A stretch of DNA of 64,000 nucleotides from Dehalococcoidia bacterium (GCA_965261455.1 OZ253453.1:1366374-1430373), one strand, 5' to 3'; counted from the stretch's first letter, positions 26,461-64,000 are shown. The notes: a model not told the origin generated them from the sequence alone. Made by a program: numbers and translations.

Positions 26461-26586
26461 TGATGACGCTCCTTTGGCTCGCGGTGAGCACGATTATAGT
26501 CCACCCGCCCGTTCCGCCGCGCGTGGAACAAATCGGCCGCCTCGCGCGTCTTAGGCATGTGCGAACACTCCACCGGAGGTCCAGAC

Positions 26587-28557
26587 ATGCCGGCTCGACG
26601 CATCTTCTCGACGCTCAGTTTGATTCTCGGAATAGCCCTCGTCCTCGCGGCGTGCGGCACAGACTCGAACGAAACGATGCCGACCGCAGCCCCGACAGCG
26701 ACGCCGGTGGCAATGCCGACGGGGTTACCGATGGCATCGGCAGTACCGCAAAGCGGGCCATCGGGCCCCAGAGGGGCGACCGGAGCAGATGGCGTCAGCG
26801 GCCCTCAGGGAGAACAAGGCCTCCAGGGAGAACAAGGCCTCGCAGGGTCTCAAGGCAGCTCCCAGGTCACGATGGCGCCGGCGGCGGCGGGCGCCCCAAG
26901 CCCAAGGACGATGAGGGAACCGACGTCGCAGGCAATGATGCCGAAGCCAAGGGCGACAGCGATGGCGGCCCCGACGGCGACGCCGGCGCCAATGATGATG
27001 CAGCCGACGGGGGCGCCGATGGCAACGGCCGCACCACAAGCCGCGCCTTATTCGAGCGGGTCTAGCGGGGCACAAGGAGCGTCGGGACCCAGAGGCGCCC
27101 AGGGCAGCCCCGGGGCGACGACCTTCCAAGATTACCCGCGCTCGCCGGCGGTCGCGACGGCTGAAGACCGGACGTCGACCTTTAGCCTCGATACCGACCG
27201 CACGTCCTACTACCTCGCGCTCAACTGGGCCCAATCGGGCTTCGAGATTGACCCCGCTTCCGTTCGCGCCGAGGAGTGGGTCAACAGCTTCAACTACGCC
27301 TACGAACCGCCGAGCTCCGAGGACCGCTTCGCCATCTCCACCGACATCTTCAGGCATCCGCTGGACGACGGAAAGCGCCTCGCGCGCTTGGCCTTCCAGG
27401 CGCCGGATCTGCACGGAGGCGAGAGAGCGCTCAACGTGACACTCGTGCTCGACGCCTCGGGGTCCATGGGGGACGGCAACCGGGTGGCCATCGCCCGCGA
27501 GGCCGCCGAGAGCATCCGGCGAAGCCTGCGCAGCCACGACCGCATCTCCGTGGTGCACTTCACCACAAACGTTATCCATGAGTACACCGTCGGGCCGCTG
27601 CGACCGGACCACCGCGACGTGAAGTGGTCGATCGCGCAATTGGGGCCGCACGGTTCGACCAACGTGCAGGCCGGTCTCGACCTCGGCGTCCGGCTCGCCG
27701 ACCAAGCCCGCCGCGAACGCCCCGACGCGTTCAACTACGTCGTGCTGATGTCGGACGGCGTGGCGAACGTCGACGCCACCGACCCCTTCGCTATCCTGGA
27801 GTCCACCGGCGGCCGCGACGACGGGAACCCGCTGCGACTCATCACGGTGGGCGTCGGGATCAACAACTACAACGACTATCTGCTGGAGCAGCTCGCCCAG
27901 CACGGCAACGGTTGGTACCGCTACCTCAGCACCACCGCCCAGGCACGGGAGACGTTCGGCCATGGCGCCTGGCTTGCGCTCTCGCTTCCCTTCGCCGATC
28001 AGACCCGCGCCCAGGTGACCTGGGACCCCGATCTCGTCCGGTCGTGGCGCATCATCGGCTACGAGAACCGCATCACGTCCGACGAGTCGTTCACCCAAGA
28101 CCGGAAGGAGTTCGCGGAGATTCCCTCAGGCGCCGCCACCACGGTCTTCTACGAGCTCGATCTCGTGGAAGGCGTGGACGCAAGAAGCGCGGGCGGCGCG
28201 AAGCTGGGCGACATCGAACTGCGCTGGGTCACGCCGGTGAGCGAAGCGTCGGTCCGGCAGCACGCGCCGATCTGGGGCCATTGGGGCACGGACTTCGGCG
28301 CCATGGATGACGCGCGGCTGCGGCTCGGCACCATCGCGGCACTTGCCGCCGACCGCTACGGCGCGCTCCCCTATGCCGACGGCAGGTACGCGCCGGAGGT
28401 CCGCCGCGACCTCTCCGTCCTCATGGACGAGCTCCGGCGCCTGGAGCGCGACCTTGGAACGCTGGAGGCCTACCGCGACTTCGCCTTCCTGCTCGACCAC
28501 ATCGTCCACAGCCTTCCCGCCGAGTCCCGGCCGGGCGATTCGGGATACAGCCGCTAG
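26587..28557 (+). CDS. von Willebrand factor type A (vWA) domain lipoprotein with collagen-like repeats
   Basis: Lipobox LVLAAC. Two GXY runs (GPSGPRGATGADGVSGPQGEQGLQGEQGLAGSQG; GSSGAQGASGPRGAQGSPG) separated by a Met/Ala/Pro-rich tract. MIDAS motif LVLDASGSMGDG. Confidence 0.75.
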   Translation: MPARRIFSTLSLILGIALVLAACGTDSNETMPTAAPTATPVAMPTGLPMASAVPQSGPSGPRGATGADGVSGPQGEQGLQGEQGLAGSQGSSQVTMAPAAAGAPSPRTMREPTSQAMMPKPRATAMAAPTATPAPMMMQPTGAPMATAAPQAAPYSSGSSGAQGASGPRGAQGSPGATTFQDYPRSPAVATAEDRTSTFSLDTDRTSYYLALNWAQSGFEIDPASVRAEEWVNSFNYAYEPPSSEDRFAISTDIFRHPLDDGKRLARLAFQAPDLHGGERALNVTLVLDASGSMGDGNRVAIAREAAESIRRSLRSHDRISVVHFTTNVIHEYTVGPLRPDHRDVKWSIAQLGPHGSTNVQAGLDLGVRLADQARRERPDAFNYVVLMSDGVANVDATDPFAILESTGGRDDGNPLRLITVGVGINNYNDYLLEQLAQHGNGWYRYLSTTAQARETFGHGAWLALSLPFADQTRAQVTWDPDLVRSWRIIGYENRITSDESFTQDRKEFAEIPSGAATTVFYELDLVEGVDARSAGGAKLGDIELRWVTPVSEASVRQHAPIWGHWGTDFGAMDDARLRLGTIAALAADRYGALPYADGRYAPEVRRDLSVLMDELRRLERDLGTLEAYRDFAFLLDHIVHSLPAESRPGDSGYSR

Positions 28558-33234: not shown

Positions 33235-33440
33235 AGTATACAGACCCGCGACACTCGGTCGGCGCCACCGAGGGGAGGCCTTTGCGCAACCCGCCTGTGC
33301 GCAAGCATGGGTGGGGCCGGGAGGTCTTGCCTCTTCTCCCGTGGGGAGAAGATTGAGATGAGGGGCACCCTCGCAACCGCCACGGGTTATCGAAGCCCGC
33401 CACCTTCACGGTCAGTCAGCCCGGTTACGCAAAAGCCTTG
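33235..33440. repeat. modular intergenic repeat (module M3, hairpin CTTCTCCC-gt-GGGGAGAAG)
   Basis: Copies at 47575-47640, 49440-49600, 49900-50010. Confidence 0.75.
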
Positions 33441-33442
33441 AG

Positions 33443-33451
33443 TGGTAGAAT
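33443..33451 (+). promoter_or_regulatory. extended -10 promoter TGGTAGAAT, 43 nt before ATG 33495
   Basis: TGn plus TAGAAT. The same element recurs at identical spacing before each tandem paralogue. Confidence 0.5.
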
Positions 33452-33494
33452 CCGGCGCAGGGCTTGGCTGGCGGCCCGATACGGGAGGGAAACT

Positions 33495-34979
33495 ATGGCG
33501 GCGGTTTCGAGCAAGTCGGCGGCGATTCGCGCAAAGCTCGATCATCCGATCATCGACTCCGACGGCCACCTCATCGAGGTGACCCCCGTGCTCTACGACT
33601 ACATCCGCGACGAGGGCGGCGAGCAGGCGCTCGCAAGATACAAGGCGGCCATAGAGCCACACTGGACGCACCTCTCGTCCGAAGAACGGCGCGACGGCCG
33701 TGTCACCGCCAATACCTGGTGGCTTGCGCCCACCAAGAACGGCCTCGACCGTGCTACGGCCATGATCCCGCGCCTCCTTTCCGAGCGCCTCGACGATCTC
33801 GGCCTCGACTTCTCCGTCCTGTACCCCTCAGCGGGCTTGCTCTACCCAAGGTGGGCCGAAGAGGACGTCCGGCGCGTCAGCTGCCGGGCTTACAACAGGT
33901 ACGTCGCCGACGCCTACGGCCCCTATTCGTCGCGACTGGCCCCGGCGGCACTCGTCCCGATGCACACCCCGGAAGAGGCCATCGAGGAGATGGAGTTCGC
34001 CGTGCGGGAGCTCGGGCTGAAGGCCGCCATGATCGCGGGCCACGTCCGCCGGCCGGTCGGCAAGGTCCAGTCGCGGCATCCCGGCGCCGTGGCGGGGTAC
34101 GGCTGGTGGTTCGACGCGTTCGGCGAGGATAGCGAGTACGACTACGACCCCGTCTGGGCCAAGGCCATCGAGCTTGGCCTCCCCCTGGCGACGCACCACG
34201 GCGGCTTCGGCTTCACCAACAACTCGAACACCAACAACTTCATGCAAAACCATCTCGGCCACTTCGCCAACGCGGCCAATCTGCTCTGCAAGTCGTTGTT
34301 CTTCAGCGGCGTCACTCACCGCTTCCCCAAGCTCCGCATGGGCTTCCTGGAATGCGGCGCGGGATGGGCCGCCGACCTCTACGGCGGCATCGTCGCCCGC
34401 TGGGAGAAGCGCAACCCCGAGGCGCTGCAACACGTCGACCCGAGACTGCTCGACGAGGACCGCGTCATGGATCTCTTCGCCGCCTACGGCGACGAGAAGG
34501 CGGTGGGCAAGCTCGAAGAGATCAAGGAGTCGCTGCGCGCGCCCAGCGTGTTCGCCGCGCAAAACGCCCCGGAGGAGCTCAACGAATTCGCCCGCGCGGG
34601 CATCACCAAGCCCGAAGACATCCGCGACCGCTTCATCCCCAACTTCTTCTTCGGCTGTGAGGCCGACGACCCCATGAACGCCTCCGCGTTCAACACCAAG
34701 ATCACCCCCTTCGGCGCGAAGATCGGGGCCATGCTCAGCTCCGACATCGGCCACTGGGACGTCCTCGACATGCGCGACGTCGTCGAGGAAGCCTACGAAA
34801 TGGTCGAGCACGGCCTCATGACCGGCGACGACTTCCGCGACTTCACCTTCAACAACCCCCTCCGCTTCTTCACCGACCTCAACCCCACCTTCTTCGACGG
34901 CACCGCCATCGAGGACGCGGCGAAGGCGGCCCTCGCCCCTCCCTCCTCCAACCTCTCCCCCGCGGGGGGAGCACCTTAA
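33495..34979 (+). CDS. Amidohydro_2-superfamily protein, tandem paralogue 1 of 4 (about 495 aa)
   Basis: IIDSDGHLIEVTPV metal-ligand N-terminus, gggaggga RBS. C-terminal tail ...PPSSNLSPAGGAP and stop lie inside the downstream hairpin repeat. Confidence 0.8.
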   Translation: MAAVSSKSAAIRAKLDHPIIDSDGHLIEVTPVLYDYIRDEGGEQALARYKAAIEPHWTHLSSEERRDGRVTANTWWLAPTKNGLDRATAMIPRLLSERLDDLGLDFSVLYPSAGLLYPRWAEEDVRRVSCRAYNRYVADAYGPYSSRLAPAALVPMHTPEEAIEEMEFAVRELGLKAAMIAGHVRRPVGKVQSRHPGAVAGYGWWFDAFGEDSEYDYDPVWAKAIELGLPLATHHGGFGFTNNSNTNNFMQNHLGHFANAANLLCKSLFFSGVTHRFPKLRMGFLECGAGWAADLYGGIVARWEKRNPEALQHVDPRLLDEDRVMDLFAAYGDEKAVGKLEEIKESLRAPSVFAAQNAPEELNEFARAGITKPEDIRDRFIPNFFFGCEADDPMNASAFNTKITPFGAKIGAMLSSDIGHWDVLDMRDVVEEAYEMVEHGLMTGDDFRDFTFNNPLRFFTDLNPTFFDGTAIEDAAKAALAPPSSNLSPAGGAP

Positions 34980-35112
34980 GCCCCCCGCAAGGGGAGCACC
35001 TTAAGTCCCCCGCAGGGGGAGCACCTTAAGCCTCTCCCCCTCTGGGGGAGACTGAGAGAGGGCGCGCGCCGCAGGCGCGCGGGTGCCCGGAGGGCGCCCC
35101 TCCCCTCCGCCG
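34952..35112. repeat. tandem 24-bp hairpin units (CCCCCGCAGGGGGAGCACCTTAAG x3) plus 3-hairpin module M2
   Basis: Directly seen. Conserved after paralogues 1-3 (3, 2 and 1 unit respectively). Confidence 0.85.
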
Positions 35113-35114
35113 GG

Positions 35115-35123
35115 TGATAGAAT
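35115..35123 (+). promoter_or_regulatory. extended -10 promoter TGATAGAAT, 44 nt before ATG 35168
   Basis: Same position relative to ATG as the other three copies. Confidence 0.5.
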
Positions 35124-35167
35124 CCGCCGCAGTAGGGGGCCAACGGCCCCGATCGGAGGCGGAAGCC

Positions 35168-36655
35168 ATGGCGGCAACATCGAGCAAGTCGGCGGCGATT
35201 CGCGCAAAGCTAGACCACCCGATCATCGACTCCGACGGCCACCTCATCGAGGTAACGCCCGTCCTGCACGACTACATCCGCGCCGAGGGCGGCGAGAGCG
35301 TCCTCCAACGGGTCAAGAAGAACGCGGATTTCGCGCACTGGACGCAGCTCTCCGCCGACGAGCGGAGCGACGCGCGAACGACCGCCATCACCTGGTGGCT
35401 CGCTCCCACCAAGAACGGCCTCGACCGGGCCACCGCCATGATCCCCCGCCTCCTCGCCGAGCGTCTTGACGACCTGGGGCTGGACTTCTGCGCGCTCTAC
35501 CCCTCGGGGGGCTTGGGCTATCCCCGGCTGCCCGACGAAGAGCTTCGCCGGGTCTGCTGCCGCGCCTACAACAAGTACGTCGCCGACACCTACGGCCCCT
35601 ATTCGTCGCGCATGACGCCCGCGGCGCTGATCCCGCTGCACAACCCCGAAGAGGGCATCGAGGAGATGGAGTTCGCCGTGCGGGAGCTCGGCCTCAAGGT
35701 CGCTATGATCGCGGGCCACGTCCGGCGCCCTATCGGCAAGGTCCGACGCGAGCACCCCGGCGCCGTGGCGGAGTACGGCTCGTGGTACGACGTCTTCGGC
35801 GAGGACAGCGAGCACGACTACGACCCCTTCTGGGCCAAGTCCATCGAGCTTGGCATGCCCCTGGCCACGCACACCGGCGGCTTCGGCTTCACCAACAATT
35901 CCAACATCAACAACTTCATGCAGAACCACCTCGGCCACTTCGCCAACGCCGGCAACCTGCTCTGCAAGTCGCTCTTCTTCAGCGGCGTCACCCGCCGCCT
36001 CCCCAAGCTCCGCATGGCCTTCCTGGAGTGCGGCGCGGGATGGGCCGCCGACCTCTACGCCGGCATCATCGCCCGCTGGGAGAAACGAAACCCCGAGGCG
36101 CTGCAAAACGTCGACCCCCGGCACCTCGACGAGGACCGCATCATGGATCTCTTCGCCGCCTACGGCGACGAGAAGGCGGTGGGCAAGCTCGAAGAAATCA
36201 AGGAGTCGCTGCGCTCGCCGAGCATGTTCGCCACCCACAACGCGCCGGAGGAACTCAACGACTTCGCCCGCGCCGGTATCACCAAGCCCGAAGATGTCCG
36301 CGACCGCTTCATCCCCAACTTCTTCTTCGGTTGCGAGGCCGACGACCCCATGAACGCCGCCGCGTTCAACACCAAGATCACCCCCTTCGGCGCGAAGGTC
36401 GGCGCAATGCTCAGTTCCGACATCGGCCACTGGGACGTCCTCGACATGCGCGACGTCGTCGACGAGGCCTACGAACTGGTCGAGGACGGCCTCATGACCG
36501 GCGACGACTTCCGCGACTTCACCTTCAACAACCCCCTCCGCTTCTTCACCGACCTCAACCCCGCCTTCTTCGACGGCACCGCCATCGAGGACGCGGCCAA
36601 GGCGGCCCTCGCCCCTCCCTCCTCCAACCTCTCCCCCGCGGGGGGAGCACCTTAA
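35168..36655 (+). CDS. Amidohydro_2-superfamily protein, tandem paralogue 2 of 4
   Basis: About 85% identical to paralogue 1 by eye. ggaggcggaag RBS. Confidence 0.8.
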   Translation: MAATSSKSAAIRAKLDHPIIDSDGHLIEVTPVLHDYIRAEGGESVLQRVKKNADFAHWTQLSADERSDARTTAITWWLAPTKNGLDRATAMIPRLLAERLDDLGLDFCALYPSGGLGYPRLPDEELRRVCCRAYNKYVADTYGPYSSRMTPAALIPLHNPEEGIEEMEFAVRELGLKVAMIAGHVRRPIGKVRREHPGAVAEYGSWYDVFGEDSEHDYDPFWAKSIELGMPLATHTGGFGFTNNSNINNFMQNHLGHFANAGNLLCKSLFFSGVTRRLPKLRMAFLECGAGWAADLYAGIIARWEKRNPEALQNVDPRHLDEDRIMDLFAAYGDEKAVGKLEEIKESLRSPSMFATHNAPEELNDFARAGITKPEDVRDRFIPNFFFGCEADDPMNAAAFNTKITPFGAKVGAMLSSDIGHWDVLDMRDVVDEAYELVEDGLMTGDDFRDFTFNNPLRFFTDLNPAFFDGTAIEDAAKAALAPPSSNLSPAGGAP

Positions 36656-36764
36656 GTCCCCCGCAGGGGGAGCACCTTAAGCCTCTCCCCCTCTGGGGGA
36701 GACTGAGAGAGGGCGCGCGCCGCAGGCACGCGGGTGCCCGGAGGGCGCCCCTCCCCTCCGCCGG
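36628..36764. repeat. 24-bp hairpin units x2 plus module M2
   Basis: Near-identical to 34952-35112. Confidence 0.85.
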
Positions 36765-36765
36765 G

Positions 36766-36774
36766 TGGTAGAAT
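36766..36774 (+). promoter_or_regulatory. extended -10 promoter TGGTAGAAT, 44 nt before ATG 36819
   Basis: Conserved spacing. Confidence 0.5.
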
Positions 36775-36818
36775 CCGGCGCAGTACGGGGCCAACGGCCC
36801 CGATCGGAGGCGGAAGCC

Positions 36819-38303
36819 ATGGCGGCAACATCGAGCAAGTCGGCGGAGATTCGCGCGAAGCTGACGCACCCGATCATCGACTCGGACGGCCACCTCATCG
36901 AGGTGACGCCGGTGCTCTACGACTACATCCGCGCCGAGGGCGGCGAGCAGGTGCTGGAGCGGTTCAAGGCCCAGGGAGGGCCGCACTGGACGCAGGTATC
37001 GCTCGACCAGCGCCGCGACGCGCGGATGACCGCGAGCACCTGGTGGCTCGTCCCCACCAAGAACGGCCTCGACCGCGCCACGGCGATGATCCCCCGCCTT
37101 CTCGCCGAGCGCCTCGACGAGCTCGGTCTGGACTTCTGCGTGCTCTATCCCTCGACGGCGCTGCCCTTCCCGAGCCTCGCCGACGAGGAGCTCCGCCGCG
37201 TCTGCTGTCGGGCGTACAACAAGTACGCCGCCGAAATGTACGCCCCCTACGCGCGGCAGATGACTCCCGCGGCGCTGATCCCGATGCACACGCCCGAGGA
37301 GGGGATCGAGGAGCTGGAGTTCGCCTCGCGGGAGCTTGGCCTGAAGGTGGCCGCGATGGCGGGCTACGTCCGCCGGCCCATCAAGAAGTTGCAGCGCGAG
37401 TTCCCAGGGGCGTCGGGACAGTTCAGCGTCTGGCACGACGTCTACGGCGAGGACAGCGAGTACGACTACGACCCCTTCTGGGCCAAGGCCATCGAGCTTG
37501 GCATGCCGTTGTCGACGCATTCGGCGGGCTTCGGCTTCACCAACAACTCCAACATCAACAACTTCATGCAGAACCACCTCGGCCACTTCGCCAACGCCGC
37601 CAACGTGCTCTGCAAGTCGATGTTCTTTAGCGGCGTGACCCGCCGCTTCCCCGCGCTCCGCATGGCCTTCCTCGAGTGCGGTGCGGGCTGGGCCGCCGAC
37701 CTCTACGCCGGCATCATCGCCCGCTGGGAGAAGCGCAACCCCGAGACCCTGCAGGGCGTCGACCCGAGCCTCATGGACGAGGACCGGATCATGGAGCTCT
37801 TCGCGGCCTACGGCGACGCGCGCGCGGTGAGCAAGCTCGAAGAAATCAAGGAGTCGTTAGTCGGGACCGGAGTCCTCGCCGGGCGGAACGCGCCGGAAGA
37901 CCTCAACGACTTCTCCCGGTCCGGCGTAACCAAGCCGGAAGACATCCGCGACCAGTTCGTCCCCAACTTCTTCTTCGGCTGCGAGGCCGACGACCCCATG
38001 AACGCCATCGCGTTCGACTCCAAGATCGCTCCCCTCCGCGCGCGCGTCGGAGCCATGCTCAGCTCCGACATCGGCCACTGGGACGTCATCGACATGCGCG
38101 ACGTAGTCGAGGAAGCCTACGAGCTGGTGGAGGACGGCGTGATGACCGCCGACGACTTCCGCGACTTCACCTTCGCCAACCCCCTCCGCTTCTTCACCGA
38201 CCTCAACCCCGCCTTCTTCGACGGCACCGTCATCGAAGCCGAGGCCAAGGCGGCCCTCGCCCCTCCCTCCTCCAACCTCTCCCCCGCAGGGGGAGCACCT
38301 TAA
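36819..38303 (+). CDS. Amidohydro_2-superfamily protein, tandem paralogue 3 of 4
   Basis: MAATSSKSAEIRAKLTHPIIDSDGHLIEVTPV.... Confidence 0.8.
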   Translation: MAATSSKSAEIRAKLTHPIIDSDGHLIEVTPVLYDYIRAEGGEQVLERFKAQGGPHWTQVSLDQRRDARMTASTWWLVPTKNGLDRATAMIPRLLAERLDELGLDFCVLYPSTALPFPSLADEELRRVCCRAYNKYAAEMYAPYARQMTPAALIPMHTPEEGIEELEFASRELGLKVAAMAGYVRRPIKKLQREFPGASGQFSVWHDVYGEDSEYDYDPFWAKAIELGMPLSTHSAGFGFTNNSNINNFMQNHLGHFANAANVLCKSMFFSGVTRRFPALRMAFLECGAGWAADLYAGIIARWEKRNPETLQGVDPSLMDEDRIMELFAAYGDARAVSKLEEIKESLVGTGVLAGRNAPEDLNDFSRSGVTKPEDIRDQFVPNFFFGCEADDPMNAIAFDSKIAPLRARVGAMLSSDIGHWDVIDMRDVVEEAYELVEDGVMTADDFRDFTFANPLRFFTDLNPAFFDGTVIEAEAKAALAPPSSNLSPAGGAP

Positions 38304-38387
38304 GCCTCTCCCCCTCTGGGGGAGACTGAGAGAGGGCGCGCGCCGCAGGCGCGCGGGTGCCCGGAGGGCGCCCCTCCCCTCCGCCGG
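38266..38387. repeat. 24-bp hairpin unit x1 plus module M2
   Basis: Near-identical to the preceding two intergenic modules. Confidence 0.85.
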
Positions 38388-38388
38388 G

Positions 38389-38397
38389 TGGTAGAAT
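38389..38397 (+). promoter_or_regulatory. extended -10 promoter TGGTAGAAT, 44 nt before ATG 38442
   Basis: Conserved spacing. Confidence 0.5.
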
Positions 38398-38441
38398 CCG
38401 GCGCAGTACGGGGCCAACGGCCCCGATCGGAGGCGGAAGCC

Positions 38442-39899
38442 ATGGCGGCGGCTTCGAGCAAATCGGCGGCGATTCGCGCAAAGCTGACGCATCCGATCAT
38501 CGATGCGGACGGCCACCTCATCGAGGTCACGCCGGTGCTCTACGACTATGTCCGCGCCGAGGGCGGCGAGGGAGTGGTCCGGCGGCTCAAGGCGGAGATT
38601 GAGCAGTCTCACTGGACGCGGCTCTCGCCCGGCGAACGGCGCGGCGCGCGGGTGCCCGCCATCACGTGGTGGCTTGTCCCCGCCAAGAACGGTCTCGACC
38701 GGGCGACGGCAATGATCCCCCGCCTTCTCGCCGAGCGTCTCGACGGTCTCGGTCTCGACTTCTGCGTCCTCTACCCCTCGCTAGGGCTGGACTTCCCCCA
38801 TCTGGCCGACGAGGAGCTCCGGCGGGTCTCCTGCCGGGCCTACAACAAGTACGTCGCCGAGATGTACGCCCCCTATGCGCGGCAAATGACGACGGCTGCG
38901 GTGATTCCGATGCACACCCCCGAAGAGGGGATCGAGGAGCTTGAGTTCGCCTCGCGGACGCTTGGCCTGAAGACCGCCATGATCGCGGGCCACGTCCACC
39001 GCCCCATCGGCGAGGCCCGGCGCGAGCATCTGGGGGCGATTGGGCAATACGGCCCTCAGCGCGGCTCGTGGTACGACACCTTCGGCGAGGACAGCGAGTA
39101 CGACTACGATCCCTTCTGGGCCAAGGCCGTCGAGCTAGGGATGCCTCTGGCGGCGCACTCGTCCGGTTTTGGGTTCACCAACAACTCCAACGTCAACAAT
39201 TTCATGCAGAACCACCTCGGCCACTTCGCCAATGCGGCCAACCTACTGTGCAAGTCGCTGTTCTTTAGTGGAGTAACCCATCGCTTCCCCGCGCTCCGCA
39301 TCGCCTTCCTGGAATGTGGAGCGGGTTGGGCCGCCGACCTCTACGCCGGCATCATCGCCCGCTGGGAGAAGCGCAACCCCGAGGCCCTGCAAGGCATCGA
39401 CCCTCGCCAGCTTGACGAGGACCGTGTCATGGAGCTTTTCGCGGCCTACGGCGACGAGAAGACCGCGGGCAGGGTCGAAGAGATCAAGGCGTCGCTTCGT
39501 TCGCCGAGCCTGTTCGCCGCGCAGAACGCGCCCGATGATCTCAACGACTTCTCCCGGTCCGGCATCACGAAGCCGGAGGACATCCACGACCGCTTCGTCC
39601 CCAACTTCTTCTTCGGCTGCGAGGCCGACGACCCCATGAACGCCGTCGCCTTCGACTCCAAGATCGCCCCGTTCGGCGCGCGCGTCGGCGCAATGCTCAG
39701 CTCCGACATCGGCCACTGGGACGTCATCGACATGCGTGACGTAGTCGAGGAAGCCTACGAGATGGTCGAGCACGGCCTCATGACCGCCGACGACTTCCGC
39801 GACTTCACCTTCGCCAACCCCCTCCGCTTCTTCACCGACCTCAACCCCGCCTTCTTCGACGGCACCGTCATCGAAGCCGAGGCCAAGGCCGCGCGGTAA
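38442..39899 (+). CDS. Amidohydro_2-superfamily protein, tandem paralogue 4 of 4 (lacks the repeat-encoded C-terminal tail)
   Basis: MAAASSKSAAIRAKLTHPIIDADGHLIEVTPV.... Ends ...AEAKAAR. Confidence 0.8.
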   Translation: MAAASSKSAAIRAKLTHPIIDADGHLIEVTPVLYDYVRAEGGEGVVRRLKAEIEQSHWTRLSPGERRGARVPAITWWLVPAKNGLDRATAMIPRLLAERLDGLGLDFCVLYPSLGLDFPHLADEELRRVSCRAYNKYVAEMYAPYARQMTTAAVIPMHTPEEGIEELEFASRTLGLKTAMIAGHVHRPIGEARREHLGAIGQYGPQRGSWYDTFGEDSEYDYDPFWAKAVELGMPLAAHSSGFGFTNNSNVNNFMQNHLGHFANAANLLCKSLFFSGVTHRFPALRIAFLECGAGWAADLYAGIIARWEKRNPEALQGIDPRQLDEDRVMELFAAYGDEKTAGRVEEIKASLRSPSLFAAQNAPDDLNDFSRSGITKPEDIHDRFVPNFFFGCEADDPMNAVAFDSKIAPFGARVGAMLSSDIGHWDVIDMRDVVEEAYEMVEHGLMTADDFRDFTFANPLRFFTDLNPAFFDGTVIEAEAKAAR

Positions 39900-56488: not shown

Positions 56489-56520
56489 CGCTGCCTAGAC
56501 ACGCCTTGCTGCTGTTACTA

Positions 56521-56540
56521 CTATTATCTAATAATAGAAT
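56521..56540 (+). promoter_or_regulatory. AT-rich palindromic operator (CTATTAT-cta-ATAATAG) overlapping a TAGAAT -10, upstream of hicB
   Basis: Perfect 7-bp inverted repeat in a locally AT-rich stretch, 15 nt before ATG 56555. Confidence 0.5.
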
Positions 56541-56554
56541 CGAGGGTTGGCGAG

Positions 56555-57055
56555 ATGAACTTCCAGATAGGCGGCAAGCGTTATGAGGTGGCCCGGGACG
56601 ACGTGATAAACGCCACGCGCGGGAGGACTCCCACGACGACCGACGGGCGTCACAAGTACTTCGTCCAGCTCCACGGTCGTCACTACCCCATCAAGCAGGT
56701 CGTCCAACTGGCCACCGGCTTGACGCCGCCCGAATTCACCTCGCAATACGCGCATGGGATTCTCACCGCGCTGGATTTCGACATCTCCGACCGTTCCTCA
56801 CCCGGTTCGGTGTCCGCCGATGACTCCAATGGAGAGCAATCGCTGAAGCTTCTCGTCGTATTCGAGACCGATGAGGACGGCTGGGAGGTTGCGAGCTGTC
56901 CGACACTCCCAGGGTGTCACAGCCAGGGCCGGACGAGAAGCGAAGCGCTGGCGAACATCCAAGAGGCCATCAGGGGCTACCTGGCGAGTATGCGCGAGCA
57001 CGGCGCCCCCCCGCCTTCCTCGTCCGAGTTCCAAGTCGTGGACGCGACCGCCTAG
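56555..57055 (+). CDS. hicB: HicB-family antitoxin with about 90-aa N-terminal extension
   Basis: C-terminal half LKLLVVFETDEDGWEVASCPTLPGCHSQGRTRSEALANIQEAIRGYL is HicB/UPF0150-like. The N-terminal half is unassigned. Confidence 0.7.
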   Translation: MNFQIGGKRYEVARDDVINATRGRTPTTTDGRHKYFVQLHGRHYPIKQVVQLATGLTPPEFTSQYAHGILTALDFDISDRSSPGSVSADDSNGEQSLKLLVVFETDEDGWEVASCPTLPGCHSQGRTRSEALANIQEAIRGYLASMREHGAPPPSSSEFQVVDATA

Positions 57056-57276
57056 TGGCCCGCTTGCCTCTGCTGTCGGGCGACGAGTTCGTCCGGGCCG
57101 TCGCCAAGATCGGATTCGCCCTCGACCGCACCGAGGGCTGCCACATGATCTTGCTAGGCCCGGCGGGACGAAGGCTCTCGGTCCCTCGTCACAAGGAGTT
57201 AGGCCGCGGCCTGTTGCGGGCGCTGATTCGCGACGCCGGCCTGACGAGGGAAGAGTTCCTGGACCTACTCCCCTGA
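57055..57276 (+). CDS. hicA: HicA-family mRNA-interferase toxin
   Basis: LSGDEFVRAVAKIGFALDRTEGCHMILLGPAGRRLSVPRHKELGRGLLRALIRDAGL. GTG overlaps the hicB stop by 1 nt. Confidence 0.75.
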   Translation: MARLPLLSGDEFVRAVAKIGFALDRTEGCHMILLGPAGRRLSVPRHKELGRGLLRALIRDAGLTREEFLDLLP

Positions 57277-58497: not shown

Positions 58498-58696
58498 CGC
58501 TGCCCCCTAATAGAGACCCTTGCATAACTTGATGCAGGGGCGGGGCTCTTACCCCCTTGTATCTTGGGGAGGAGAGCGGTAGACCGATACCCCCCTGGTC
58601 CAAGAAAGACCGTGGGAGAGCGATGGTCGCCGCTCCTACTCCAAGGAAGAGCCCGAACAGTTGCCAGGGCATGCAAAGCCCGAATCTGCAAGGTAG

Positions 58697-59686
<990 letters not shown>

Positions 59687-59689
59687 CTT

Positions 59690-59835
59690 TCAACACAGTT
59701 GCTCTCCCGCTGGGAGAGGGTTGGGGTGAGGGCGGGGGGCGGCGGGGCGCGCCAAGGTGGACGAAGCGCGCCGCTATCAAGGATGGACGCTTAGAGGGCG
59801 CCACAGGGCGGCGCCCCTCCCGTCCCTGAGAGTGT
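59690..59835. repeat. REP-like hairpin module copy (CTCTCCC-gct-GGGAGAG; GGGCGCC...GGCGCCC) abutting the IS110 3' end
   Basis: Related to M1/M2 modules elsewhere in the window. Confidence 0.6.
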
Positions 59836-59848
59836 CTTGCAAAAGCCC

Positions 59849-60880: not shown

Positions 60881-60962
60881 GACGCCTCCTCGATTCGAGT
60901 ATCGGAGCTAGGGTAGCCAGGCACGGGGGCCGCGTCCACTCCCGCGCTTTCCCGCCCGTATA

Positions 60963-63900
60963 ATGGCGACGAGACGATCACTGGACGGAAGAAACAAGGA
61001 CTTGGGTTCAGGGACAGAACGACTAGAAACGGTCAACCGCGCGGTAGACCGGTGGAAAGAACAGTTGGTAGACGTCTCCGGACGCAACCGACTGCTGAAC
61101 TACCGCGACCTGCAGCGGGGGACGCTGGATCTAACGCCTCGCTGGAACGCGGGCGTCGATCCCCGCGTCCTAGACTCCCTGCTTGGCGGGGATACGGTCC
61201 GGCTGACCCGCCTTCTCCCGAACGAGGAGTCCCAGACCGACGCCCGCAAGCGGTTGACGGTGATCCAACGAAAGACCCAAGAGCACTTGGAAGAGAAGGG
61301 CATCGACACCCTGTTCGCCGCCGCGGGTCTGGCGTCGTGGGCGGTGGAAAGCGGGGCCACACCCAGGGCCCCGGTCTTGCTGTTGCCCCTCGCCGTGCAC
61401 CCCGAAGGCGCCGCGCGGCGGGATTTCACGATCGAGCTGTCCAGCGAGCCGCATCTCAATCCGGTGCTCGCGCATGTGCTCCGAACCCAACAAGGCATCG
61501 GTCCCGGAGTAGAGGAAGGCGGCCTTGACGACGACGTCAACGCGGCATTTTCCGAGATAACCCAGTTCGGCTTGGGTAAGCAGCGGGCGTCATCGGTTAC
61601 CGACGACATTCCCAAGTCCTATGCCGGAATAACTGACTTCTTGCGGGAATTAGAGGTTCAATGGTCGAAGGTCCAAGGCTTGAGCATCGAGCCCCGCTTG
61701 GTGGTGAGTAACTTCCGGTACGCCACCATGCCGATGGTGGCCGACCTCGAACGCAGCCGCGAAACCATTGCCGGCAACGACCTCCTCGCCGCTATCGCCG
61801 GCGTGGACGAAGCCCGCCGGGCCCTCGCCGACAGAATCCACGACCCCTCCCCCAATCGGCCCGATATCGACCCGCCCGAGTCGGAGTTCCTCGTGCTCGA
61901 CGCCGACTCAAGCCAGCACCGGGCGATCAATCGTGCCTTGGGCGGCGAGTCTGTGGTGATCTGGGGACCGCCGGGGACGGGAAAGTCGCAGACCATCGCG
62001 AACTTGATCGCCGCCCTCATCGCCCAAGGAAAACGCATTCTGTTTGTGGCCGAAAAGCGGGCCGCCATCGACATGGTGGTCGGACGCCTCCGGCGCGCGG
62101 GGCTGTCGGATCTCGTCCTCGACGTCCACGGAGGCGGCAAGTCGAAACGCGAGTTCGCCCAAAGCATGGCCGCCTCAATTCGCAGCATCGGATCGATTCC
62201 CGAGCCCGACCATGCCATCCTTCACCGCCAACTTTCGGAGCGCCGCAGCGAGCTCATTGCTCACAAGGACGCGCTTCACGAGCCTCTGTTCCCCTGGAAT
62301 GTAACCTTGTTCGACGTGCAGAATGGCTTAATCGGCGCCCCAGAAGCCGCCCAGACGAGTTTTCGGCTTCCGTCCGGCAAGGCACGAAAACTAGACAGGG
62401 AGAAGGCCGATCGGCTCAAAGAGCAAATAACGGAATGGGTCCGGCTAGAGGGTCCGTATGTGAGAACCCGCTATGCCGACTGGGCACGGCTCTCCGCAAC
62501 AACGCCAGAAGAAGCCCGCGACGCATTCGAGTTGGTCAGAGGCTTAGCCGACGATCTCCCTAACACGCAGCGGCGGCTGGCTGACGACGTTGGTGAGCTG
62601 GGTCTGGCTTGCCCCGGAACGGTAGCGGACTGGTCTGAGCTCGCGGAAGACCTATCGGTACTGTTCCCCAACATCAGGCGTCTGCTCGAATGCTTCAGCC
62701 CCGAGATTTACGACCGAAAACGCGCGGGCCAGTTGGTAGGACACCTGTCCGTCGACTTCTCCAAAGCACGCTGCTCGCTTTCCGCCACCGCCGACGAGGA
62801 AGTTCCCGCTCTAGGGCAATCGGTCAACTGGCCTGAGCTTGTTGACAAGTTGTCGGCATTGTTCCAAGACATTGAGCGCCTGCTCACGCGCTTCGGATTC
62901 GAGATTTACGACCGCGAACGCGCGGACCAGTTGGTAGGACACCCGTCCGCCGACTTCTCCAAGGTGCGCCGTTTGCTTCCCGTCGCCGACGAGGAAGGTT
63001 CTGTTCCAGGAGAATCGGTCAACTGGCCCAATCGAGCGGCCGAGCTATCGGCGTTGTTCGCGGACATTGCACGCTTGCTTGAACGTTTCGGAACCGACAT
63101 CTATGAACTCGACCACGCCGCCTTGTCGGCCGCGCTGGCGCCGTCCAAGAGTTGGCGGGGCCTGATTGCGGGCCTTCTCTCGAAGGACTACCGCGCCGCC
63201 AGAGACTCGGTGCGAGCCGTCCACCGGGCCCCGCAGAGCATCTCCGCCGCCGAAGCACTCAGCGCTGTCGAGGAAGCGGCGCGTCATCGTCTGGAATGGC
63301 GACGGCTGGGCGCGGCCCACGCCCTCAATGCTATTGAAGAAGCCACGCGACACCGTCTGGAATGGGAGCGGCTGGGCGCGGCCCACGCGCTTGACGCCGT
63401 CGAGGAGGCAGCACGCCACTGGCGCGAATGGGAACGCCTAGGCGCCAATGGCAACCCTCGAGTGTCACCGGACCTCGAAAACGTCCGGAAAGCCGTCGAT
63501 TCCCTGAGGGGGCGCCTCGCCAAGCTGCGGGACTTGCTGTCATGCAAAGACCTAACGCGCGAGCCTTACGGAGAGGTGGAGCAAAAGCTGCAACGCATGG
63601 CCTCCCAACAGAACGTGGCGGCGAACTTGCCGCGCATCCAGGCGCTGGAGCGCCAGTTCAAGAAGGCCGGTATCGACAAGATCGCCGCCGCCGTAGGAGG
63701 AGAAATCCTACCGGAGTACGCCGCCGAAGCCTTCGAATACGCCTGGCTGCGGACGATATGGGACGACAAGCTCTTCGATGATTCCAACTTGGCTAGCTTC
63801 ACGAGCGACGGGCACAATCGCCGAGAGGAGGCATTCGCCGGCCTCGACCGTCACCACTTGGAGATCACCCCTCAGCGGATCAAGCGGGCGGCCGCCGAAG

Positions 63901-64000
63901 CCGCAATTCAGGTGATGAACGAACACTCGATAGAAACCGATCTTGTGAGGAGGGAAGCGGCAAAGAAGAGCCGCCACCTTCCGGTTCGACGACTGTTCAC
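60963..64000 (+). CDS. large SF1 (Upf1/DNA2-like) helicase-family protein with DUF4011-like N-terminus; 5' partial, runs off window end (over 1012 aa). Absent from the supplied ORF track.
   Basis: Manual translation of frame 0 from ATG 60963 has no stop to 64000. N-terminus WKEQLVDVSGRNRLLNYRDLQRGTLDL (DUF4011-like). Walker A VVIWGPPGTGKSQTIANLIAAL. Internal 45-aa and 20-aa tandem repeats at about 62600-63450. Confidence 0.7.
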   Translation, partial: MATRRSLDGRNKDLGSGTERLETVNRAVDRWKEQLVDVSGRNRLLNYRDLQRGTLDLTPRWNAGVDPRVLDSLLGGDTVRLTRLLPNEESQTDARKRLTVIQRKTQEHLEEKGIDTLFAAAGLASWAVESGATPRAPVLLLPLAVHPEGAARRDFTIELSSEPHLNPVLAHVLRTQQGIGPGVEEGGLDDDVNAAFSEITQFGLGKQRASSVTDDIPKSYAGITDFLRELEVQWSKVQGLSIEPRLVVSNFRYATMPMVADLERSRETIAGNDLLAAIAGVDEARRALADRIHDPSPNRPDIDPPESEFLVLDADSSQHRAINRALGGESVVIWGPPGTGKSQTIANLIAALIAQGKRILFVAEKRAAIDMVVGRLRRAGLSDLVLDVHGGGKSKREFAQSMAASIRSIGSIPEPDHAILHRQLSERRSELIAHKDALHEPLFPWNVTLFDVQNGLIGAPEAAQTSFRLPSGKARKLDREKADRLKEQITEWVRLEGPYVRTRYADWARLSATTPEEARDAFELVRGLADDLPNTQRRLADDVGELGLACPGTVADWSELAEDLSVLFPNIRRLLECFSPEIYDRKRAGQLVGHLSVDFSKARCSLSATADEEVPALGQSVNWPELVDKLSALFQDIERLLTRFGFEIYDRERADQLVGHPSADFSKVRRLLPVADEEGSVPGESVNWPNRAAELSALFADIARLLERFGTDIYELDHAALSAALAPSKSWRGLIAGLLSKDYRAARDSVRAVHRAPQSISAAEALSAVEEAARHRLEWRRLGAAHALNAIEEATRHRLEWERLGAAHALDAVEEAARHWREWERLGANGNPRVSPDLENVRKAVDSLRGRLAKLRDLLSCKDLTREPYGEVEQKLQRMASQQNVAANLPRIQALERQFKKAGIDKIAAAVGGEILPEYAAEAFEYAWLRTIWDDKLFDDSNLASFTSDGHNRREEAFAGLDRHHLEITPQRIKRAAAEAAIQVMNEHSIETDLVRREAAKKSRHLPVRRLF

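What the first reader, a model, noticed from the sequence alone, without database searches (positions are those of the whole stretch)
60963..64000. Giant DUF4011-like/SF1-helicase ORF missing from the ORF track, with internal coding tandem repeats
Frame 0 from ATG 60963 is open to the window end, so the supplied track (which needs a stop) omits it. The product begins with a DUF4011-like motif (VSGRNRLLNYRDLQRGTLDL). It carries a Walker-A P-loop in Upf1/DNA2-type context (FLVLDADSSQHRAINRALGGESVVIWGPPGTGKSQTIANLIAALIAQGKRILFVAEKRAAIDMV). It then contains three roughly 45-aa repeats (..VNWPELVDKLSALFQDIERLLTRFGFEIYDRERADQLVGHPSADFSK..) followed by three 20-aa repeats (A[LI]xA[VI]EEAARHRLEW[RE]RLGAAHAL). 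DUF4011-helicase-DUF3320 proteins are poorly characterised, and Upf1-like helicases are a recurrent component of anti-phage systems. The gene lies next to an IS110 element and its own promoter-like TATAAT abuts the ATG. The intragenic repeats suggest a variable region.
Basis: partly seen in the sequence, partly recalled or inferred. Interest (0 to 1): 0.6.

Follow-up and report, generated by a model that had tools for sequence, protein, structure and literature searches.

The report
Accessory Hhe-like helicase–nuclease gene with repeats
The window ends inside an intact gene of about 1,670 codons for a single-protein helicase fused to a DNA-cutting domain, from a family catalogued as (candidate) anti-phage defence; the gene is a present-or-absent 5-kb cassette in related genomes, and its internal repeats lengthen a helical arm that has grown or shrunk in matched steps in many relatives.

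Summary
The ORF is real, open to the window end and intact. A 100%-identical database protein continues to 1652 aa. Its domain order is DUF4011, a Upf1-like SF1B helicase, an MTES_1575/Vsr-like endonuclease and a Top1-type zinc ribbon. It has no DUF3320 and no partner nuclease gene, because the nuclease is fused. The best profiles are PADLOC PDC-S37 (940 bits), NCBIfam ProA (878 bits, cutoff 1500) and Hhe (610 bits, cutoff 2000). So it is a relative, not an equivalog, of the two named anti-phage proteins.

Both repeat sets exist, but the periods are 66/65 aa and 22 aa. The copies are old (68–76% DNA identity) and fixed at 3+3 in this clade. A ~75%-identical relative has 1+1.

Across 118 homologues, all length change between Walker A and motif II falls at these two sites. 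Copy number is matched between the sites in every lineage, which suggests an extensible helical arm.

The gene sits in a 5.07-kb promoter-bearing cassette. It is present in three related Dehalococcoidia genomes and precisely absent in four others. The likely start is TTG 61002, not ATG 60963. The IS110 is one gene away and unrelated.

Verdict: a new member of a known, poorly understood kind, of moderate interest.

The parts
60948..64000 (+). Left boundary and first ~3.05 kb of a ~5.07-kb single-gene cassette that continues past the window end
   Evidence: The empty site in L008 aligns to L001 up to 9985 (= window 60947) and resumes at L001 15050. The cassette is occupied in the window, L001 and L005, and empty in L008, L009, L010 and L011.
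60959..60964 (+). TATAAT, a -10-like element inside the cassette, 11 nt from its left edge
   Evidence: CCGTATAATGGCG is invariant in the window, L001 and L005. The consensus scan finds no matching -35. Promoter function is inferred.
60963..60965 (+).
   Evidence: L001 has TAG 10 codons downstream in frame. The following ~30 nt diverge without codon periodicity.
61002..61004 (+). TTG, the most likely start codon (product ~1673 aa)
   Evidence: It is invariant in three genomes, and third-position-dominated change starts here. The database call at TTG 61065 would remove a conserved, confidently modelled N-terminal helix.
61002..61841 (+). N-terminal alpha/beta domain containing Pfam DUF4011 (Pfam match = 61065-61481)
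   Evidence: PF13195 E 1.9e-13, above the gathering score. In the AF2 model the ~280-residue N-terminal region is mostly pLDDT >90 apart from two short low-confidence loops. No significant PDB fold match.
61905..62096 (+). First part of helicase RecA1 (AAA_11), with Walker A GPPGTGKS at 61965-61988 and motif Ia
   Evidence: PF13086 E 4.5e-12. PDB sequence hits to IGHMBP2, DNA2 and Upf1. Walker A is invariant in 92 homologues.
62145..64000 (+). All-helical insertion between motif Ia and motif II. It is ~714 aa here and ~537 aa in most relatives; motif II (DEASQ) lies just beyond the window end.
   Evidence: 548 clusters at 50% identity share it, matching only its two ends and skipping the middle.
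62592..63182 (+). Site 1: three 66/65-aa 'A' units (about 62592-62789, 62790-62987, 62985-63182), each predicted as a helix pair. A3 is the ancestral-type copy.
   Evidence: DNA repeat 62629-62797 / 62827-62995, 75% identical, period 198. Protein periods 66, 65 and 131. Unit alignment. Secondary structure.
63245..63442 (+). Site 2: three 22-aa 'B' units (63245-63310, 63311-63376, 63377-63442), predicted as essentially one long helix. B3 is the ancestral-type copy.
   Evidence: 66-nt period, 68-76% identity.. One 67-residue helix in the arm-only model, two adjoining helices (43 + 20 residues) in the larger model, both at low confidence.

Best explanation
This is the first ~60% of an intact gene for a stand-alone helicase-nuclease of the Hhe/ProA/PDC-S37 superfamily.

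Domain order, N- to C-terminus:
- a DUF4011 domain
- a Upf1-like SF1B ATPase/helicase whose RecA1 domain is split by a very large helical insertion
- an MTES_1575/Vsr-like endonuclease
- a conserved winged-helix-like tail
- a Top1-type zinc ribbon

It most likely acts alone as an accessory nucleic-acid-targeting defence enzyme. The motor would load on and translocate along foreign DNA, and the fused nuclease would cut it. DUF4011 and the helical insertion would act as sensing or autoinhibitory parts.

Shown here: the domains and intact motifs, purifying selection, the absence of conserved partner genes, presence/absence as a promoter-bearing 5.07-kb cassette, and faster evolution than its neighbours.

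Inferred: the defence role (from profile similarity and from published Hhe data), 5'-3' DNA translocation (from SF1B membership), and the roles of DUF4011 and the arm.

The intragenic repeats are extra structural modules of the helical insertion. Each extra module is one A helix-pair at site 1 plus one B helix at site 2, so each pair would lengthen an out-and-back helical arm by one bundle segment. This is inferred from the matched copy numbers.
For: Architecture and integrity:
- Pfam DUF4011, split AAA_11, AAA_12, MTES_1575 (E 6e-34) and Zn_ribbon_Top1 on the 100%-identical full-length P0001.
- Helicase motifs I, Ia, II (DEASQ), III (GDDRQLPPT), IV, V and VI are readable in the sequence, and nearly all are >=90% conserved in 92 homologues.
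- The nuclease motif D...E-A-D-G..YH is equally conserved.

Family:
- PDC-S37 E 7e-283; ProA E 1.5e-263; Hhe E 7e-183.
- Published work: E. coli hhe protects against lambda, T3, T7 and PhiV-1, and a nuclease point mutant (E1731A) loses the activity (bioRxiv 10.1101/2022.06.16.496414).

Accessory nature:
- Precise empty sites in L008, L009, L010 and L011, against occupied sites in the window, L001 and L005.
- L008 is as close to L001 as L005 is (MBL protein 97.4% vs 93.1%).
- A related allele sits at a different locus, another lies beside TrwB-like and Replic_Relax genes, and there are 532 plasmid records with distant homologues.

Evolution:
- dN/dS 0.24, so the gene is functional. dS is 0.49 against 0.17-0.26 in four flanking genes.
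- Protein identity is 76-82% where the flanking proteins compared are 92-96% identical.
- GC3 is 0.74 against 0.88-0.95 in the neighbours.
- No conserved neighbours across four different contexts.

Arm:
- All 25 long homologues have repeats at the same two sites with lineage-specific periods, and almost none of the 93 others do.
- Added lengths at site 1 / site 2 are +57/+65, +88/+70, +96/+97, +92/+121, +128/+130 and +190/+207, and here +134/+43. The flanking segments are constant at 169 and 161 aa.
- The short class has paired deletions at both sites.
- A units are predicted as helix pairs and B1-B3 as essentially one long helix.
Against: - The scores are below NCBI's curated cutoffs for ProA (878 vs 1500) and Hhe (610 vs 2000), and the first 447 ProA profile positions are unmatched.
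- PDC-S37 is only a candidate, and I found no paper on it or on ProA.
- The gene is not in a defence island. Its neighbours are metabolic genes, and the locus is syntenic in three genomes.
- A large DUF4011 gene is a conserved core gene in all P. aeruginosa isolates (PMC10250203), so DUF4011 helicases are not necessarily defence genes.
- The higher dS and lower GC3 could reflect weak codon-usage selection rather than allele exchange. GC3 of 0.74 lies in the lower tail of the window's genes but is not an outlier.
- The arm geometry is untested. The clade-specific repeats are modelled below pLDDT 50, and the arm-only model has mean pLDDT 46.
Confidence: 0.6

Rival explanations
1. It is a housekeeping DNA repair, recombination or replication-restart helicase-nuclease, analogous to DNA2 or AddAB. 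It would be vertically inherited in this lineage and simply lost in some relatives.
For: The locus is syntenic with metabolic genes in three genomes at 71-77% protein identity. Selection is purifying. The ATPase core matches DNA2, IGHMBP2 and Upf1. A DUF4011 gene is core in P. aeruginosa. The Top1-type Zn ribbon is typical of DNA-metabolism enzymes.
Against: The gene is precisely absent in four related genomes, one of which is as close as an occupied one. It evolves faster than its flanks and has lower GC3. Related alleles sit at other loci, next to mobile-element genes and on plasmids. The best profile matches are defence-family models.
Confidence: 0.2
2. It is a selfish single-gene mobile cassette whose helicase-nuclease mainly serves its own spread or maintenance, for example homing-like cleavage of empty sites or addiction.
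For: The 5.07-kb insertion/deletion has clean boundaries, its own TATAAT and no recombinase. The CCCGCCCG 8-mer occurs at both ends in L001. Alleles occur at different loci. The Vsr/MTES_1575 fold belongs to a restriction-endonuclease-like superfamily.
Against: The end repeat is short, GC-rich and not conserved in L005, so it could be chance. No terminal inverted repeats or integrase were seen. A 1670-aa motor protein is far larger than known homing endonucleases. The empty-site sequence is not what a simple repeat-mediated excision of the L001 allele would leave.
Confidence: 0.1
3. The repeats are a hypervariable or contingency region that changes copy number rapidly by slippage to vary specificity.
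For: Tandem in-frame repeats are present. The 1+1 and 3+3 alleles are ~75% identical elsewhere. B1 and B2 in L005 are homogenised at 61/66 nt.
Against: Copies are only 68-76% identical in DNA, and TRF finds nothing. All five closest proteins have 3+3. For A units, orthologous identity (67-88%) far exceeds paralogous identity (26-53%). dN/dS is ~0.38.
Confidence: 0.05
4. It is a decaying pseudogene or an artefact of a long chance ORF in GC-rich DNA.
For: None beyond the missing stop within the window.
Against: The full-length 1652-aa product is in the database. Five orthologues at 66-81% identity have all motifs. dN/dS is 0.24.
Confidence: 0.01

Closest known systems
PADLOC PDC-S37 (single-gene phage-defence candidate)
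   Same: This is the best-scoring profile: E 7e-283, 940 bits. It matches from about profile position 200 to 1445 of 1550 in two stretches that break at the extra A repeats. The overall architecture is the same.
   Different: PDC-S37 is an unvalidated candidate, and I found no literature on it. The profile appears to be of the basal single-copy type. The window protein adds 2+2 extra modules and a C-terminal Zn ribbon.
NCBIfam NF058533 'anti-phage protein ProA'
   Same: E 1.5e-263. The alignment spans P0001 residues 52-1528 against profile 448-1834, so it covers the helicase, the helical insertion and the nuclease.
   Different: The score of 878 bits is below the 1500 cutoff. About 447 N-terminal profile positions have no counterpart. 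I could not trace the source publication.
Hhe (DUF4011 helicase + Vsr-like endonuclease; Gao et al. 2020 as cited in bioRxiv 10.1101/2022.06.16.496414)
   Same: It is a single polypeptide with DUF4011, an SF1 helicase and a Vsr-like nuclease. NCBIfam gives E 7e-183 and PADLOC E 1.4e-142, aligned over the second half of the helicase and the nuclease. Hhe's nuclease Glu is essential for defence. By profile offset it falls near the conserved E of AIEADG here (approximate inference).
   Different: The score of 610 bits is well below the 2000 cutoff. Only the P-loop region and the C-terminal ~580 residues align. Plasmid relatives at ~32% identity are annotated as DUF3320 proteins, and that domain is absent here.
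Upf1-like SF1B helicases (IGHMBP2/SMUBP-2, DNA2, Upf1/NAM7)
   Same: They are the closest solved structures by sequence for the P-loop region (E 5e-13 to 5e-4). The motif set is the same (DEAxQ, GDxxQLPP, QGxExD, RRLNVAxTRA). Like them, this protein has accessory domains inserted in RecA1.
   Different: The insertion here is ~540-935 aa and all-helical, far larger than the 1B/1C domains. It is fused to a Vsr-like rather than a DNA2-type nuclease. There is no whole-protein structural match.
SMC/Rad50/MukB/JetC-type ATPases with long antiparallel coiled-coil arms (analogy only)
   Same: A P-loop ATPase domain is interrupted by a long helical out-and-back insertion. These proteins are the nominal top Foldseek hits.
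   Different: The hits are not significant (E >=0.04, TM <0.1). The ATPase class differs (SF1 helicase vs ABC-type). This is an analogy for the arm idea, not homology.

Membership tests
Pfam DUF4011 (PF13195) | Profile match above the gathering score at the N-terminus | tested here: met
   51.1 bits against a cutoff of 22.2, E 1.9e-13, covering profile positions 2-158 of 158. The same holds in P0001 and L001.
SF1B Upf1-like helicase | AAA_11 + AAA_12 above the gathering score, and motifs I, Ia, II, III, IV, V and VI intact | tested here: met
   AAA_11 72 bits and AAA_12 44 bits on P0001. The motifs are read from the sequence and are invariant or nearly so in 92 homologues. PDB sequence hits to IGHMBP2, DNA2 and Upf1. 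Motifs II-VI lie beyond the window end.
SF1B Upf1-like helicase | ATP-dependent 5'-3' translocation or unwinding | not testable with these tools
   Needs biochemistry.
MTES_1575 / Vsr-like endonuclease (PF18741, PF04480) | Profile match above the gathering score, with a conserved acidic active-site motif | tested here: met
   PF18741 116 bits against 38.2. DUF559 22.3 bits against 20.6. The D...EADG..YH columns are >=90% conserved. The domain lies beyond the window end.
   There is no PF11784 hit on the full protein at E<=0.01, nor on the C-terminal 251 aa at E<=10.
NCBIfam ProA (NF058533, equivalog) | Whole-protein score >= 1500 bits with full-length profile coverage | tested here: not met
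   878 bits. Profile positions 1-447 are unmatched.
NCBIfam Hhe (NF042953, equivalog) | Whole-protein score >= 2000 bits | tested here: not met
   610 bits. The best stretch covers only P0001 830-1406.
PADLOC PDC-S37 | Strong, near-full-length match to the single-gene model | tested here: met
   E 7e-283, 940 bits, covering about profile positions 200-1445 of 1550. This tool does not give PADLOC's own coverage rule.
Anti-phage defence system (generic) | Experimentally shown protection against phage | not testable with these tools
   Protection is published only for E. coli Hhe.
Anti-phage defence system (generic) | Location in a defence island or next to other defence genes | tested here: not met
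   The neighbours are dehydrogenase, racemase, MFS, MBL, CoA-transferase and amidohydrolase genes. A HicAB pair lies ~4 kb upstream.
Anti-phage defence system (generic) | Accessory gene: presence/absence among close relatives, with faster evolution than the flanks | tested here: met
   Empty sites in L008-L011. dS 0.49 against 0.17-0.26. Protein identity 76-82% against 92-96% for the flanks.
IS110-associated or composite element | The IS element is adjacent to the gene and co-occurs with it | tested here: not met
   The IS110 (58499-59847) is separated by one gene and is absent from L001 and L005, which keep the helicase.

The most novel reading that the evidence does not exclude
The giant helical insertion in the helicase's RecA1 domain is a length-tunable out-and-back arm built from bundle modules (one A helix-pair plus one B helix here). 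Evolution has lengthened or shortened it at least eight times independently by matched insertions or deletions at two separated sites. Arm length would then be a functional 'ruler' or specificity determinant of a stand-alone immune helicase-nuclease. The whole gene travels as a promoter-bearing single-gene cassette without any recombinase of its own.
Probability: 0.3. Interest if true: 0.6.

Novelty: new member of a known kind. Interest (0 to 1): 0.4.

Why it matters
DUF4011 helicase-nucleases (Hhe, ProA, PDC-S37) are widespread, but I found no mechanistic study or solved structure of a close relative.

This locus offers a clean natural experiment. One chromosomal site is found with and without the gene in related genomes, and alleles that are ~75% identical elsewhere carry 1+1 or 3+3 arm modules.

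The family-wide rule that the two repeat sites always change together gives a concrete structural prediction: an extensible helical arm. It can be tested directly by cryo-EM and by swapping arm lengths. If arm length sets target or sensing specificity, that would explain why this part of the protein is the hot spot of change.

Practically, the result corrects two things. The start codon used by the database gene calls is probably wrong. The DUF3320, partner-nuclease and IS110 ideas do not apply here.

Tried and rejected
- Tandem Repeats Finder found only a trivial 10-nt repeat, because the units are too diverged.
- An exact look-up of P0001's contig failed with 'not on record'. The window's own downstream DNA was therefore not obtained, and I used the orthologous loci L001 and L005 instead.
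- Literature searches for ProA and PDC-S37 found nothing relevant.
- Foldseek against the PDB gave no hit with E<=0.001. The top nominal hits were coiled-coil ATPases at TM <0.1.
- The AF2 model of the 999-aa fragment is good for the conserved parts but below pLDDT 50 on the clade-specific repeat copies.
- The arm-only AF2 model with five sequences has mean pLDDT 46 and is unusable, so I ran no fold search on it. Coordinates are not exposed, so A-B packing could not be checked.
- blastp of each insertion against itself returned only the diagonal, so I replaced it with an ungapped BLOSUM62 diagonal scan.
- Regex anchors for the two sites worked in only 33 of 118 proteins, and one (P0090) was mis-anchored.
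- The sigma-70 consensus scan found no full promoter, and Rfam found nothing in the conserved intergenic DNA.
- Rejected ideas: pseudogene, an IS110-linked element, DUF3320 architecture, a downstream partner nuclease, and a slippage-type contingency locus.
Full report
**1. The observation**

Translating 60963-64000 in frame 1 gives 1012 codons with no stop. The mechanical ORF list omits it only because it runs off the window. The quoted N-terminal motif lies in a Pfam DUF4011 match above the gathering score (E 1.9e-13). The P-loop segment matches AAA_11 (E 4.5e-12), the IGHMBP2-family model and the solved structures of IGHMBP2, DNA2 and Upf1.

Both repeat sets are present. A 198-nt (66-aa) repeat has copies at 62629-62797 and 62827-62995 (75% identical), with a third, more diverged copy 65 aa further on. 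A 66-nt (22-aa) repeat has three copies at 63245-63442 (68-76% identical). Tandem Repeats Finder does not detect them.

**2. The whole gene**

A database protein, P0001, is 100% identical over the window part and runs to 1652 aa. It carries these Pfam domains:
- DUF4011
- AAA_11, split into two stretches
- AAA_12
- MTES_1575, a restriction-endonuclease-like domain (E 6e-34, with a weaker DUF559 match)
- a Top1-type C4 zinc ribbon at the extreme C-terminus

Helicase motifs I, Ia, II (DEASQ), III (GDDRQLPPT), IV, V and VI, and the nuclease motif (IDF...AIEADG..YH), can be read in the sequence. Nearly all are conserved in at least 90% of 92 homologues. So the pseudogene refutation criterion is not met.

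DUF3320 is absent, even at E<=10 on the C-terminal 251 residues. The nuclease is fused, and no partner nuclease gene follows in the orthologous loci.

**3. The start codon**

The database calls for P0001-P0003 start at an internal TTG (window 61065). Three orthologous loci were aligned: the window, L001 and L005. In all three, CCGTATAATGGCG and a TTG at window 61002 are invariant. The ~30 nt between them diverge without codon periodicity, and in L001 they contain an in-frame TAG. From the TTG onward, changes are mostly at third positions.

The residues just after this TTG (TERLETVNRAVDRWKEQ) are conserved across the family and form a helix modelled with moderate to high confidence.

I therefore take TTG 61002 as the start, giving ~1673 aa. 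TATAAT (60959-60964) would be a conserved -10-like element. No -35 consensus and no Rfam family were found there.

**4. Family placement**

| Library | Model | Score | Curated cutoff | Note |
|---|---|---|---|---|
| NCBIfam | anti-phage protein ProA | 878 bits | 1500 | profile positions 1-447 unmatched |
| NCBIfam | Hhe | 610 bits | 2000 | |
| PADLOC | PDC-S37 | 940 bits (E 7e-283) | not given by this tool | |
| PADLOC | Hhe | 475 bits | not given by this tool | |

Weaker hits go to the Mokosh helicases. The protein is thus a clear relative of these families. It is closest to the unvalidated candidate PDC-S37, and it is not an equivalog of ProA or Hhe.

The one functional anchor I found is that E. 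coli hhe protects against lambda, T3, T7 and PhiV-1, and a nuclease point mutant (E1731A) abolishes this. I could not find the ProA or PDC-S37 source literature. Distant (~32%) homologues occur on 532 plasmid records, annotated as DUF4011 or DUF3320 proteins.

**5. Genomic context**

The closest genome locus, L001 (a Dehalococcoidia MAG), and L005 share the same gene order:

short-chain dehydrogenase, luciferase-like monooxygenase, MFS transporter, enolase-superfamily enzyme, 2-hydroxyacid dehydrogenase (divergent), **helicase**, MBL-fold hydrolase, MFS transporter, CoA-transferase, amidohydrolase.

The IS110 element (~58499-59847) is a window-specific insertion between the enolase-superfamily gene and the dehydrogenase gene. 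It is absent from L001 and L005.

Searching with the neighbouring dehydrogenase found four related loci without the helicase:
- In L008 the dehydrogenase is next to the MBL gene, separated by 123 nt.
- In L009, L010 and L011 it is next to the MFS gene.

L008 aligns to L001 up to position 9985 and again from 15050. This defines a 5064-nt cassette that begins at window 60948, 11 nt before TATAAT, and ends ~45 nt after the stop.

L008 is as close to L001 as the occupied L005 is: the MBL protein is 97.4% vs 93.1% identical, and the enolase-superfamily protein 92.2% vs 91.0%. The polymorphism therefore lies among close relatives.

No integrase or terminal inverted repeats were seen. The 8-mer CCCGCCCG at both ends in L001 is GC-rich and is not conserved in L005.

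Other alleles sit elsewhere:
- P0006 is next to acyl-CoA metabolism genes.
- P0042 is beside NucS-like, TrwB-like and Replic_Relax genes.
- P0007 is among housekeeping genes.

There is no conserved partner.

**6. Selection and composition (window vs L001)**

| Measure | Helicase | Four flanking genes |
|---|---|---|
| dN/dS | 0.24 (0.08 at the P-loop, ~0.38 in the repeats) | 0.11-0.30 |
| dS | 0.49 | 0.17-0.26 |
| Protein identity to orthologues | 76-82% (full length) | 92-96% (three of the four; the MFS protein is 86% vs L001) |
| GC3 | 0.74 | 0.88-0.95 |

 The window's median GC3 is 0.83, and a few other genes fall near 0.72-0.79.

This pattern fits an accessory gene with an older or exchanged allele. 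Weak codon-usage selection is an alternative explanation.

**7. What the repeats are**

In 118 homologues the Walker A to motif II distance is 530-545 aa in 77. It is 481 aa in 13 and ~560 aa in 3. In the other 25 it falls into discrete longer classes: 660, 696, 715 (this clade), 730, 751, 796, 905 and 935 aa.

Every one of the 25 long proteins has internal repeats at the same two sites. The periods are lineage-specific: 62/65, 88/70, 66/22, 96/95, 62/64 and 96/110. Only 1 of the 93 others has a repeat.

All length change lies between two anchors, and the flanking segments are constant at 169 and 161 aa. The added lengths at the two sites are:

| Lineage | Site 1 | Site 2 |
|---|---|---|
| P0038/P0044 | +57 | +65 |
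| P0028 | +88 | +70 |
| P0049/P0051 | +96 | +97 |
| P0073 | +92 | +121 |
| P0033/P0056 | +128 | +130 |
| P0042/P0046/P0058 | +190 | +207 |
| window clade | +134 | +43 |

Copy number is equal at both sites in every lineage (the anchors resolved only 33 proteins). The 481-aa class has paired deletions at the same two sites.

The exhaustive search with the insertion alone found 548 clusters at 50% identity. They match its two ends (query 1-190 and ~410-618) and skip the middle.

AF2 predicts the whole insertion as helical. Each A unit is a pair of ~22-26-residue helices, and B1-B3 form essentially one long helix: one 67-residue helix in the arm-only model, two adjoining helices of 43 and 20 residues in the larger one.

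My inference is that one A helix-pair packs on one 22-residue stretch of the B helix to form a bundle segment. The unequal residue counts here would then still add equal physical length to both limbs of an out-and-back arm.

**8. How dynamic the repeats are**

Within the five closest proteins the copy number is always 3+3. A units are much more similar to their orthologues (67-88%) than to each other (26-53%), so the triplication is old. B units show some concerted evolution: in L005, B1 and B2 are 61/66 nt identical, against 47-55/66 for orthologous units.

P0006 is ~75% identical outside the repeats and has 1+1, exactly 176 aa fewer. The region is therefore variable on an evolutionary scale. 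It is not a slippage-type contingency locus.

**9. Verdict**

The feature is a new member of a known but poorly understood kind: a stand-alone DUF4011/SF1B helicase fused to a Vsr-like nuclease.

It is most likely an accessory defence enzyme (confidence ~0.6). A housekeeping repair role (~0.2) and a selfish-cassette role (~0.1) are the main rivals.

Three results go beyond routine annotation:
- the clean occupied/empty cassette
- the revised start codon
- the family-wide coupling of length changes at two sites of the helical insertion

Noticed in passing
window 58499-59847 (transposase ORF 58715-59686, +): An IS110-family element (DEDD_Tnp_IS110 + Transposase_20) is inserted between the enolase-superfamily gene and the 2-hydroxyacid dehydrogenase gene. 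It is absent from the orthologous loci L001, L005, L006 and L008, where those two genes are only about 10 bp (L001, L005, L006) to ~210 bp (L008) apart.
   Followed up: partly
window 56555-57276 (+): A HicB antitoxin (56555-57055) and HicA toxin (57055-57276) pair sits inside the metabolic gene cluster. Window 56495-56813 has no blastn match in L001. HicA/HicB are called in L006 and L009, and only HicB in L008.
   Followed up: partly
window 60881-60947: The divergent intergenic DNA between the dehydrogenase start and the cassette edge is almost identical in the window and L001 (3 differences in ~67 nt). It is also retained in the empty-site genome L008, so it belongs to the flank, probably as the dehydrogenase's promoter or leader. 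Rfam finds nothing there.
   Followed up: partly
window 61065 (database start of P0001-P0003): Public gene calls for this protein and two orthologues start at an internal TTG. This removes a conserved N-terminal helix; calls for P0004 and P0005 start further upstream.
   Followed up: yes
window 33438-39899 (+): Four tandem paralogous ORFs of 503-513 aa each match Amidohydro_2. This is a local gene-family expansion.
   Followed up: no
window 26557-28557 (+): A 666-aa ORF has vWF_A/VWA and YfbK_C domains and a short collagen-like triple-helix repeat near the N-terminus.
   Followed up: no
L005 8001-12974 (B units of P0005): B1 and B2 are 100% identical in protein and 61/66 nt identical, closer than any orthologous pair. 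This points to gene conversion or re-duplication in that lineage.
   Followed up: yes
L002 / L003 (P0042 locus): The 1746-aa allele with the longest arm lies between a NucS_C-domain gene and TrwB-like and Replic_Relax genes, with a UvrD/PDDEXK helicase-nuclease and an HTH gene upstream. This looks like an integrated mobile element or defence-rich region.
   Followed up: no
L008 12045-13025; L006 8390-9046; L009 6614-7510: Related loci carry other accessory genes near the same metabolic cluster: a GmrSD_N-domain gene (L008), a GIY-YIG gene (L006) and a P63C-domain gene in place of the MBL gene (L009). This suggests the neighbourhood tolerates insertions.
   Followed up: no
L012 2-334 and 273-4112 (P0006): The 1+1-module allele is split at its N-terminus into a 110-aa ORF and the 1279-aa ORF, and it abuts a contig end. 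This reflects either a frameshift (sequencing error or real) or truncation, so whether this allele is functional is uncertain.
   Followed up: no
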